A DNA stretch of 64,000 nt from the human T2T-CHM13v2.0 reference genome, Homo sapiens, in NCBI RefSeq assembly GCF_009914755.1, contig NC_060927.1. The stretch is one strand, 5' to 3'. Of this stretch, positions 28,326 through 34,829 are shown piece by piece (the stretch's first letter is position 1; each line of letters begins with the position of its first letter). The position numbers were made by a program, and so were the translations under genes. The notes below the pieces were generated by a model, which worked only from the letters and a program-made list of their open reading frames with translations, ran no database searches and was not told the origin of the DNA.

Positions 28326-28627
28326 CTAAAGGATAAAGGGAGAGATATAATCCCTGCTCTCAAAATCTTAACATCAGTGGTGAAGATGCTCATCCTTGGA
28401 ATTAGTTTTGGTCTTCACTATTGATGCTAAGATTTTGAGAGCTGGGATTATATCTCTCCTTTCCTTGTTTCTCATGGCATAAATGCCAATTAAATAAATG
28501 AATAAACCAATTTATAAAAGATTTACTAATTTTTATTAAATGTATATATAATATCCTGGATAGTAATCCCATACATATTTTATTTAGAAACAGTTATATT
28601 AAATGTTATTTAATATTAAAAGCCTTA

Positions 28628-29937: not shown

Positions 29938-31844
29938 CAACCAAGTTTGAATCTACTTTTCATATGATGGTTATCACCACACAATATGGCAAATGCAACA
30001 CAGAAAATGAAGGACAGCTGTATCACAGAGTGAGCTCCAAATTCCAGAATCCATTGGAGAAATATTGTTAGTTTCAAGCATGAGTAGTCCATGTTCACAT
30101 AACAGAGATTATCGTTGATCGTATTTCTTTATATTAGCATTTATCATATTTTATTGAAATTGTTTGAGTACCTTCAAACTTCTGTGATGTTAGTTATTAC
30201 ATTTTATTTAACTTCGTATCTGCAGCATCTTGCAGGGTACTTGACACATCAATAACAATGGAGATTATTACAGGAAATAACTCAATATTTTCATCTCTTG
30301 TCTTAATAAAATGAAATAGAGGATAATTCCTCCCATTTCAATAAATCCATATTGAGCAGCAAATCTCCACATTCTTTTATTCCCCAATCAGGTTAAAACT
30401 AGGACCCAAAAAACCAATAACTAAAATCAATAACAATGATTTTCAAACTCTGTGCCAAACACCTAGGTGGCTTTTGTAGGGGATTCCATTTTGTTTATAT
30501 GTTGTTTCTGGGGACAAATTTAATTTATTCAAACACTCTGGCTCTATCTAGGTTCTAAATTGCCTCATTTCTGCTTTCTAAGTAGTTTTTCTACCACTAT
30601 AAAGTTTTGTAAAACATCTTGTGGTTTGGATAAAAAAAAAATTGCTAAGGGTCATTTGAGGGTTATTTTGTTTTTTGTTTCTGTTTTGTAAATAAAGAAA
30701 GAGATGAGTAATCTTATATGAGATCATTTCCATAAAATAGATAAGTAGCAGTGAATTTACATTATAGCTTGGGAGGGTGTGTTCATAAACTGGAAAAATA
30801 TTTATTGACAAAAAAAGTGATGAACAGTACTCTAGACAGGCTGCTGATGAAGGCTATTATGTCTCCTTGTGACTCAACTGGGGTCAGAATAAGGTGGCTG
30901 CTTCAGTTATTCTAAAGAGATTTCATTCAAATGTCAAATTTCACAATAACTCATTGTATGGCAGATTTAGTGTAAATACTAATTAACTGAAAGTTATCTT
31001 TTCAGTTATACTTTGATACTAATTAGAGAAATCTTTGTTCTGGACAGCAATACCATTAGAACATTTACTGACTTAGCTTGTGTCTCTTTGTAAAATCAAA
31101 ATTTTAAACATAAAATGTCAAACAAGCTTCTTCATGAACCAAAGAGATACAGACAAGTTTCTTTGAGAATGGGGCAAACATTCAGTGTCTTGGTGCCCAG
31201 ACAGTGGAGTAAGAATGGGACACAATTAATACAATTTTCTTCATGGTTTTCTCTGATCTTTCCCCAACAACTGATGGAAGAATCAACTAGGGAGTAGTTG
31301 TGTACCCTGGAGTACCACTGATCTCATTACCTGAGAATGTCTTTCTAGCCTAACAAGTGAAAACATGCTCTCTTATGATACATTCTTTATTATACCCATG
31401 TGCCTCAGAGGCAATGGTATAGCTGGGATCTACTTTGAACAAGATTCTTTTGTTGGCAAACAGAAGATGGCTCTTGTCTTTATAGAACACACCCACAAAA
31501 AATGCTATTTCTTACCTATCAAGAGGCCCAAAGTGTATCCAAGACTGGGAGTTAGAGCTATCTTTCCAGTAGCCCCTGCATGGAATAGTCACAGGTACCC
31601 ACCTGCTTACATGAACATCCAAAGGAAAAACAATTAAAAAATTTGTATCAGCTCTGAGGTTACCCAGATATACAAATGGAAGTTGTAGCTGTCAGTGCTA
31701 TTAATGTGAAGAGTTCATGATCAAGAGTGTAAAATACTCTCTAGTTTTACGGTAACCTGAAGCCTGGAAACACAGGCAAATGAATATCCATAATAAATGG
31801 GTTATTAGTGTTACATTACAATAAGTTATATAGTCAAAAGCATT

Positions 31845-32320
31845 GTACAATGTCTTCAATATGTTCCTCCTTTTTAGCAATTCATAGCTTAATGCTTTGT
31901 ACGAAATTGCAATGAGTGTGGTGCATTAATGCAGAATTTCCATCAGTCCCTATATATACATCTGGAATACAATGCCTCAGGAATTTATGTCTCTAATTTT
32001 CACTAAATAAACCTGTGCCTTTAGCATACCCCAGAATAAGTAAGTGAAAGGGTTCAGATCTAATAAGCATGCAGCCCACTTCACAAGACTGTGTGGTTCA
32101 ACCCAATTTACGAAATTATCCTCCACCCAGGCCCTCACCACTCTGGTGTAAGGAAATGGTGCACCGTCAAATACATCCACTCTGGTGACTTCACCTGGCC
32201 TGTCAACCTAGAATTTAGAGCTTTTTCTTTATTTTGTAATGGTGGAATGGACTATTCTTATATGGCAGTTTTCTCTAATGAACCATCGGTTATGATTCCA
32301 TAATTAGAACATAACCTGTG
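31845..32320 (-). mobile_element. Fossil Tc1/mariner-superfamily transposase C-terminal half (DD41D/rosa-like)
   Basis: DGAP...W...W.....DLNPFTYLFWGMLKAQVY, then after a frameshift LRHCI...NFVQSIKL*IAKKEEHIEDIV. Confidence 0.8.
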
Positions 32321-32556: not shown

Positions 32557-34829
32557 TTGCATTAATATCTAGATACAGCATACAATGGGAAAAAATAAAA
32601 ACAATGACAAATTAAAAAATAAATACAGAAATTTAAATGGTCAATCTATAATAATATTTGGGTATGGCTGAGTTTCAAGAGAAAATGTTGTTAAAAAGAG
32701 AAACTTCCACTGGAAAATTGGAGAGGAAACATCAATCTCTTGATCCCAAATATATCTTTGACTTTATGACATGGAGAATTCACAGGTGGAAAATTAGAGG
32801 AGATTTCGGTTTATCACTATAGTTGATTCATGCCCTCCTGGGCAAACAAACAGTAGTCTACTTAGTCAACTTTCATTTTCAACTTGAAATGTTGGAACCA
32901 TTTGTTTGGATTTTCTGACAGGTAGTTGACACTATAAGCCACAAAACTCAATGATCCTAACAAGCTTCAAGTGAAGATGTAGAAGTATCCAGCTCAATGA
33001 GTTGCCATTGCTTATACTTTGATTTCCAGCACAAAATGGCTGGCCTTTGGCTGGCTGTTTGGTGAAGCATGCTTATGAGACATGAGGAGCCAGTTCTAAC
33101 TTCTCATTACATGAGGAAATGCTGTTTGAACATAATGCATTTCCTGGGACTTCTTGGTGTACTCCATCATCCCTCCTCCCCATACACAAACTGTCACTCC
33201 CTGACATCCTCAAATCCATGATCCATGACTCCTACTGACTGCCCCAGGAACAATGAGGGTGCTCCCTTAGAAGAAGGCATGGGGGGGGTGGAGTGACCGT
33301 TGAGTATACTCTGATTTTTTAAAAAACTGTCATATGGCGAGATAGTGGGTTTCAATGCTGTCACCTATTCAGTCAGCCCAGATGAACTAGAATCACCATT
33401 TCAGTTATATCATAGCTCCAGGCAAGAACATGTCACCCCCTTTATTTCCAGCTTCCAACAAGCTGCTTAGGCAGATGCTAAATGTGGTCCTCCCTGCCAC
33501 GTTGGGTAGAGTGGCCTTTGTGTGGGTTAATTGAGCCCCCACTCCATTTAATAGGCTGTTGAAGTCTTATTGAAACAGAGCTAGTGCCGCAGGTTAAATA
33601 CATTGCAGTGCTCTTGCTAATCCTCTCATTAACAGGGCTGGAAAGCTTGTTGGGAGCTGTGAGTTTGCATATATTAACAGGGAGCTCTTCACTCAAGTGC
33701 TATCAATAAAATGACAAAGCCAGTTTGCAAATAGTGAAATCAACAGTGACACAAAGCTAGATACCTTTAAAAAAATAAACAGCTTAATAACTGATAAATC
33801 TTATATTCACACTTGAGAGAAGGTAAAGATAAGCTGGGAAGAGATGACTTTTATTGGGTCAGACTTAAGACAGAAATGTAACTGATGTCAAACCACTGCA
33901 GAGACTAGCGGATGAAGTTGAATTGAGAAATGTTGTTAATGAGCCATTGAGGGTAGACCCACATTTAGAAGCACCCAAAATGGCACAGTATGTTGTTTTT
34001 TAATAAAGGGGTGGAAAATAAAATCCTGGCACTGGCTGAAATAGGTAAGGTGGAGAGTTGTAGGGTTGCCATCTCCTAGGAAAACCATGCCGACATAACC
34101 ATTTCAGAAAGCCTGTGGCATCAGAAGCAGACTCCTGATGCTGAGCCTGCTCTGTGCCAGCATGGAAGTGGGGGAAAGGGGACCCGTGAAACAGGGGGAG
34201 GATCACAGTGTGTTCAGCTGAAGACTGCCCATCATCAGTTTGTGTGTCACACAAGAAAATGGAAAGAGGATTTGGGGAGAAGAGTATCAGTAGATGGAGA
34301 TAGTGTCACAAAGGACTAATAAATATGGCACAAAGACAAGATCATTGGCAAATGATCTGTGCTGTTAGCCATCCTTAATGCTTAGTGAAAAGACAAATAA
34401 ATGCTCTATGATGTCAAACAGCAAAATGGAGCTTTTATGGCTGAGTGGATTTTGATTATCTTGGACAAAATGGTATCTACATTTTAGGAAAAATAAAAGT
34501 CTCCCTATGCCAACCGGTTAAATAGCAGGAGTTTACACCCTAGAGTATAATTTTAGAAAATAGCAGATGAGGGGTATTGGTGATAGTTTCCTAGGACTGC
34601 TGAAGAACAGGGTTGTTTTGCTGTTCCCCTCCCCGACTTGTTTGTGTGGAAACAAAAAACACCCAGGTATCAAAGTAAATCAAGTGTCACAGATCTGAGA
34701 GTTTCTGATCTTTAGAAAGTATGTAACTTCAAAGTTATTTTGATTTTTAAAAAGTGATTTGGACTAACTATCTAAAATTCTGTTGGTAATCAGCCATGTT
34801 TAAGTGTTATGGTGGATAATTCTCAACTA

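What the first reader, a model, noticed from the sequence alone, without database searches (positions are those of the whole stretch)
31845..32320. Fossil DD41D (rosa/Visitor-like) Tc1/mariner transposase in primate DNA
Seen: DGAPFPYTRVVRAWVEDNFVNWVEPHSLVKWAACLLDLNPFTYLFWGMLKAQVY, continuing after a frameshift at about 31980 as LRHCIPDVY...HCNFVQSIKL*IAKKEEHIEDIV, with weak upstream NYGII..DGS..IPPLQ. Established: this fits the QQDGAPxH...WPxRSPDLxPxDFFLWG...GGHxEH layout. There are 40 residues between the second Asp and the position of the third catalytic residue (now Thr), nearer DD41D than mariner DD34D, Tc1 DD34E or pogo/Tigger. Coding remnants of this clade are not among the familiar human DNA transposons. 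No TIRs were identified.
Basis: partly seen in the sequence, partly recalled or inferred. Interest (0 to 1): 0.7.

Follow-up and report, generated by a model that had tools for sequence, protein, structure and literature searches.

The report
Dead jumping-gene fragment in human DNA
This is a broken 460-base remnant of a cut-and-paste jumping gene of the Visitor (rosa) group, one of dozens of scattered human copies that likely died out early in mammalian evolution and likely belong to a repeat family already in the catalogues.

Summary
The transposase remnant is real: minus strand 32206-31748, matching residues 245-352 of a full-length DD40D transposase (48% identity, E 6e-18 within the window). 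The clade call holds: it groups with DD40D/DD41D (rosa/Visitor) proteins, not mariner DD34D. The 40-residue spacing is ancestral, and other copies keep the third Asp. It is one copy of a dispersed human family: at least 34 insertions in hand, about 27-bp inverted ends, TA flanks, four internal-deletion forms, about 30% diverged. A chr1 copy carries the N-terminal half. No sign of selection or function. The family is not MARNA by its ends. It is most likely one of the catalogued non-autonomous Tc1-class repeats (EutTc1-N1/N2 or DNA1_Mam), which I could not test without Dfam. What may be unreported is the DD40D/Visitor parentage and an invasion of an early mammalian ancestor.

The parts
31748..32206 (-). 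Whole recognisable element: positions 81-534 of the ~535-bp deletion form; the first 80 bp with the left terminal repeat are missing
   Evidence: pairwise alignment; nhmmer of the whole window
32169..32206 (-). Coding remnant just before Asp2, with two 1-nt deletions (about 32184 and 32175)
31980..32168 (-). Stop-free catalytic segment: Asp2 at 32168-32166, Asp3 position (now Thr) at 32045-32043, 40 residues between; P0154 residues 245-304 at 48% identity
31846..31980 (-). C-terminal segment after the 1-nt frameshift, one in-frame stop at 31884-31882; P0154 residues 320-352 at 48% identity
31777..31845 (-). Position of the family's stop codon (now a sense codon) and 3' non-coding tail
31750..31776 (-). 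Degraded right terminal inverted repeat (family TIR about 27 bp)
   Evidence: recognised by continuous alignment, not by its own score
31748..31749 (.). TA, likely the target-site duplication
   Evidence: sequence; TA on both sides of six other copies

Best explanation
It is a broken, 5'-truncated copy of a dispersed human DNA-transposon family whose coding part groups with DD40D rosa/Visitor transposases, and it was likely pasted into a TA site by a now-extinct parent element early in mammalian evolution and has likely decayed without function since. Shown: homology, multi-copy family, inverted ends, four deletion forms, frameshifts, loss of the third Asp in this copy. Inferred from Tc1/mariner biology: a parent with a ~350-aa transposase cut and pasted into TA; incomplete repair of excision gaps left internally deleted elements with intact ends (about 535, 310-400 and 105-125 bp, plus a ~560-bp form with the N-terminal half) that the parent enzyme moved in trans. 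Inferred: an age of roughly 100-150 million years, and identity with a catalogued repeat (EutTc1-N1/N2 or DNA1_Mam).
For: Family: 16 other genomic matches among 17 candidates; 35 of 38 non-redundant loci hit the family profile, the 3 misses being the mir-340-type controls. Ends: the majority sequence has inverted ends of about 27 bp; TA on both sides in 6 of 36 family rows. Clade: the profile of human fragments aligns without gaps over 126 of 126 columns to P0154 (E 1e-41) and not to the human mariner gene (E 0.28). Of 58 hits with a readable motif (of 151), 41 were DD41D and 7 DD40D. Human rows plus P0154 form a branch with 95.9/99 support. Asp3 is kept in 5 of the 6 rows covering that column. 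Decay: divergence 0.295 against a median of 0.30; dN/dS 0.57 within the 0.30-2.68 range of 24 other pieces; chance of 63 stop-free codons about 0.10. Relative age: three times the 0.10 divergence of 11 human mariner copies; Alu-like inserts sit inside some copies.
Against: No human copy showing Asp1 or residues 128-215 was found, so the full triad is inferred from relatives. Deep tree branches are weak (DD40D quartet 73/70; split from DD37D, DD34E and mariner 81/83), and no pogo/Tigger sequence was in the tree. No other mammalian genome was available, so age and neutrality rest on divergence only. The catalogue name is untested. The window copy's dN/dS is at the low side of the long copies.
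Confidence: 0.9

Rival explanations
1. The same element, but a family missing from Repbase and Dfam: an unrecorded DD40D Visitor invasion of the mammalian ancestor.
For: Kojima 2018 does not list a rosa/Visitor-type element among human Mariner elements with coding parts. PMC9219625 says DD41D/VS entered only a few mammal lineages. The stretch is not among the longest masked stretches in the hub note. My ten literature searches found no paper tying a human repeat to DD40D/DD41D (bear on it).
Against: At least 34 insertions were found with insensitive searches, so catalogues would likely hold it. EutTc1-N1, EutTc1-N2 and DNA1_Mam exist as human or mammalian-wide families, and a TcMar-Tc1 family is in the T2T RepeatMasker annotation. 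A systematic protein-fossil scan reports human TcMar-Tc1 fossils.
Confidence: 0.12
2. This copy was co-opted, as a short coding exon or as part of the neighbouring regulatory region.
For: It is the best or second-best genomic match to full-length relatives, has a 76-codon stop-free stretch and dN/dS 0.57, and lies 453 bp from an annotated enhancer (hub note).
Against: Asp3 lost, three 1-nt deletions, one stop, no start or DNA-binding part. Divergence equals the family median. The open stretch has a chance of about 0.10 and was selected for being readable. No annotated gene or enhancer overlaps it.
Confidence: 0.05
3. It is MARNA or another mariner (DD34D), or a pogo/Tigger remnant.
For: MARNA is an old, abundant human TcMar repeat (2186-3459 copies in the Jurka 2012 supplement).
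Against: The mir-340 locus, annotated as MARNA in two papers, and two look-alikes do not hit the family profile (0 of 3) and match the TIR at background level (15-16 of 27). Identity to human mariners is 15-16% against 64% to P0154. None of 149 relatives carries Pfam Transposase_1 or DDE_1.
Confidence: 0.03

Closest known systems
rosa/Visitor (DD41D, with DD40D variants) family of Tc1/mariner
   Same: Catalytic-half layout and C-terminal end; short TIRs (28-32 bp for rosa, PMC5490172); TA flanks; internally deleted derivatives as in aphid rosa MITEs of 349-578 bp. DD40D is a described variant (bumblebees; aphid LTIR).
   Different: No intact copy found in human. About 30% diverged, far older than the young invasions described for this family. 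TIRs are short, unlike the long-TIR DD40D aphid clade.
Unnamed full-length DD40D transposases P0154, P0152, P0153 (350-352 aa)
   Same: 64%, 57% and 54% identity to the family majority translation; same 40-residue spacing; P0154 aligns without gaps and also matches the N-terminal copy L077 (E 1e-14).
   Different: They are intact frames from unnamed sources; their hosts are not known here.
EutTc1-N1, EutTc1-N2, DNA1_Mam (Repbase/Dfam human repeats)
   Same: By name and listing: mammalian-wide DNA transposon repeats, EutTc1-N1 under Mariner/Tc1, fitting the age, class and deletion structure found here.
   Different: Kojima 2018 does not list them among elements with coding parts.
HSMAR1/SETMAR and MARNA (human mariners)
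   Same: Same superfamily.
   Different: 34-residue spacing, 15-16% identity, no profile match, different ends, about one third of the divergence.

Membership tests
Tc1/mariner superfamily | Terminal inverted repeats | tested here: met
   Family majority ends are inverted repeats of about 27 bp; the window copy keeps only a degraded right one
Tc1/mariner superfamily | TA target-site duplication | tested here: met
   TA on both sides in 6 of 36 family rows, on one side in more; no empty site could be compared
Tc1/mariner superfamily | DDE/D transposase with N-terminal HTH domains | tested here: met
   C-terminal half in the window; N-terminal residues 25-127 in L077 between the same ends; relatives carry DDE_3 (43 of 149) and DUF4817 (21 of 149)
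rosa/Visitor DD41D group | Third catalytic residue Asp | tested here: met
   Asp in 5 of 6 rows covering the column; Thr only in the window copy
rosa/Visitor DD41D group | 41 residues between Asp2 and Asp3 | tested here: not met
   40 residues, without indels in the window, L006 and L019, as in P0152-P0154; DD40D is a described variant, so this excludes only the strict DD41D label
rosa/Visitor DD41D group | Phylogenetic nesting among DD41D/DD40D transposases | tested here: met
   with P0154 at 95.9/99, inside DD40D/DD41D rows; references are labelled by spacing, not by published names; deep branches weak
rosa/Visitor DD41D group | First catalytic Asp and full-length ~350-aa frame | tested here: inconclusive
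   No human match to residues 131-215 of P0154 other than SETMAR among 21 places from 39 candidates; search is insensitive
mariner DD34D (HSMAR, MARNA) | 34-residue spacing and mariner profile | tested here: not met
mariner DD34D (HSMAR, MARNA) | MARNA-type ends | tested here: not met
   mir-340 locus as a stand-in for MARNA: no hit; only the hairpin ends of MARNA were tested
pogo/Tigger | DDE_1 domain and pogo clade | tested here: not met
   0 of 149 relatives carry DDE_1; no pogo sequence was placed in the tree
EutTc1-N1/N2 or DNA1_Mam | Match to the Dfam/Repbase consensus | not testable with these tools
   No repeat library is held; supplements that might give sequences or places were unreadable or empty

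The most novel reading that the evidence does not exclude
A DD40D Visitor transposon invaded the ancestor of placental or all mammals, far earlier and wider than the few mammalian lineages reported, and this parentage is unrecorded whether or not the repeat has a name; its deletion forms still hold both the DNA-binding half (chr1 copy) and the catalytic half of the enzyme in human DNA.
Probability: 0.4. Interest if true: 0.4.

Novelty: new member of a known kind. Interest (0 to 1): 0.25.

Why it matters
It matters little for human biology: this is neutral fossil DNA. For transposon specialists it would attach an old human repeat family to the rosa/Visitor clade, add a further Tc1/mariner lineage to those with coding remnants in human DNA, and push Visitor's entry into mammals back to a deep ancestor. 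That is a catalogue-level refinement, not a new mechanism.

Tried and rejected
The single 62-aa peptide found nothing in Pfam, PDB or the word-indexed protein search; only the profile of 16 fragments from 10 loci and the window worked. Upstream coding extension: rejected. MARNA: my first guess, rejected through the mir-340 locus. Search for a full-length human copy: the DUF4817 model found 0 of 24 candidates, with no positive control; P0153 and P0154 found only half-elements. A search with the N-terminal copy found only itself (1 of 1 candidate), so that form may be rare. The first tree lost its mariner and DD34E rows through my pattern error and was redone; only 2 of 12 mariner loci gave a usable row. 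A first protein alignment was misaligned and dropped. The Visitor paper (Shen et al. 2020) and Pace and Feschotte 2007 are not held. No structure or complex prediction was run, as it would not change the reading. Rfam found nothing over the element.

Full report
Observation. Six-frame translation shows both peptides on the minus strand as described: Asp2 at 32168-32166, Thr in the third catalytic position at 32045-32043, a 1-nt frameshift near 31980 and a stop at 31884-31882. The lone peptide finds nothing in Pfam, PDB or the word-indexed search. It does match a profile of 37 related transposases at E 1e-13 and the full-length protein P0154 at 48% over 60 and 33 residues, E 6e-18 within the window. 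The upstream motifs are not homologous: the family alignment begins at 32206, and five close relatives score the next 240 bases at background level (equalled or beaten by 31 to 505 of 526 controls).

A repeat family. A DNA search of the genome gave 16 other matches among 17 candidates; further searches added more. After I removed 27 redundant or near-identical loci, 35 of 38 hit the family profile; the 3 misses were the mir-340-type controls. Counting three block-duplicated copies once and adding L077 gives at least 34 insertions in hand, a lower bound because the searches are insensitive. The majority sequence of 25 pieces is about 535 bp with inverted ends of about 27 bp. Six of 36 family rows have TA on both sides. 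Copies fall into forms of about 470-540 bp, 310-400 bp and 105-125 bp that share both ends and nested parts of the 3' half. L077 on chr1 has the same ends but holds the N-terminal half. The window copy is the long form, positions 81-534, with a degraded right repeat at about 31750-31776 and TA at 31748-31749; the left end is not in the window.

Clade. Sixteen fragments read in frame, with X at stops, aligned almost without gaps. Spacing is 40 residues in three copies without indels, and 5 of 6 rows have Asp at the third position, so the family was DD40D. The profile hit 3447 proteins. Of the 151 in hand, 58 had a motif my pattern could read: 41 DD41D, 7 DD40D, 3 DD37D, 7 other; 93 were fragments or degenerate, and that pattern could not see mariner motifs. 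Pfam on 149 of them gave DDE_3 in 43 and DUF4817 in 21, and none with Transposase_1 or DDE_1. The nearest full-length relatives, P0152-P0154, are DD40D. The profile aligns over 126 of 126 columns to P0154 (E 1e-41) but not to SETMAR (E 0.28). In a 32-row tree the human rows join P0154 (95.9/99) among DD40D/DD41D rows; identity is 64% to P0154 and 15-16% to human mariners. Limits: deep branches are weak, references are unnamed, no pogo row was included, and no human copy shows the first Asp.

Age and function. Leave-one-out divergence is 0.295 for this copy, median 0.30, against 0.10 for 11 human mariner copies. With a recalled age near 50 million years for HSMAR1, this suggests roughly 100-150 million years; that is inference, untested by orthology. 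dN/dS is 0.57, inside the range of 24 other pieces (pooled 0.79, by a method that reads below 1 for neutral DNA), and a 63-codon stop-free run has a chance of about 0.10 at the family's rate of 60 stops in 1691 codons. No annotated gene or enhancer overlaps it.

Mechanism. Shown: the parts above. Inferred from established Tc1/mariner biology: a parent with a ~350-aa transposase cut and pasted into TA sites; incomplete repair of excision gaps made deleted elements with intact ends that were moved in trans; after the parent died the copies decayed, and this one lost its left 80 bp, its third Asp and its frame. Confidence 0.9.

What is known. [quoted passage not shown] EutTc1-N1 and N2 appear in PMC11353194 (passages); the Jurka 2012 supplement (PMC3500645, matching rows only) lists EutTc1-N1 and DNA1_Mam as mammalian-wide; PMC13732488 (passages) shows a TcMar-Tc1 family in the T2T annotation; Frith 2022 (PMC9004415, passages and one section) counts human TcMar-Tc1 protein fossils. 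DD40D variants are in PMC8472432 and PMC5490172 (passages); PMC7325037 (passages) gives rosa as DD41D; PMC9219625 (passages) says DD41D/VS entered few mammal lineages. Recalled, not read: Shen et al. 2020 report Visitor in bats, marsupials and tarsier and derive DD40D from DD41D; RepeatMasker files such elements under TcMar-Tc1. MARNA was tested through mir-340, annotated as MARNA in PMC10671384 and PMC9409130 (table passages): no hit. My searches found no paper linking a human repeat to DD40D/DD41D, but Repbase, Dfam, the Visitor paper and several supplements could not be seen and may already state it.

Verdict. A real, correctly placed but ordinary transposon fossil. I put about 0.85 on the family already having a catalogue name. 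The residual interest is the DD40D/Visitor parentage and its deep age. Novelty: new member of a known kind. Interest 0.25.

Noticed in passing
L077:294-856 (G000:C1:87861093-87861655): A ~560-bp copy with the same ends that carries the N-terminal half (about residues 1-127) of the same transposase joined to the 3' tail; E 1e-14 to P0154. No second copy was found.
   Followed up: partly
window 28336-28462: Hairpin with 51-nt arms, 90% complementary; sub-threshold Rfam hit to MIR9563 (75.5 bits, cut-off 90). Likely a palindromic repeat remnant.
   Followed up: no
L035, L036, L038: Three ~115-bp copies on C12, C1 and C5 share 2.6-3.0 kb of flank at 88-99% identity: one insertion carried in a duplicated block.
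   Followed up: partly
L009/L010 and L046-L049 (C9): Near-identical family copies at two and four places on chromosome 9, likely segmental duplications; counted once each.
   Followed up: no
L042, L043: Two loci resembling the mir-340 hairpin (41 bits, below cut-off), likely further short MARNA-type elements.
   Followed up: no
window 31980-32180 (P0003): The window's own stop-free stretch is in the protein library as a predicted 67-aa protein, likely a gene-caller product and no sign of expression.
   Followed up: no
window 32659-34582: The annotated enhancer begins 453 bp beyond the truncated 5' end of the element and does not overlap it.
   Followed up: no
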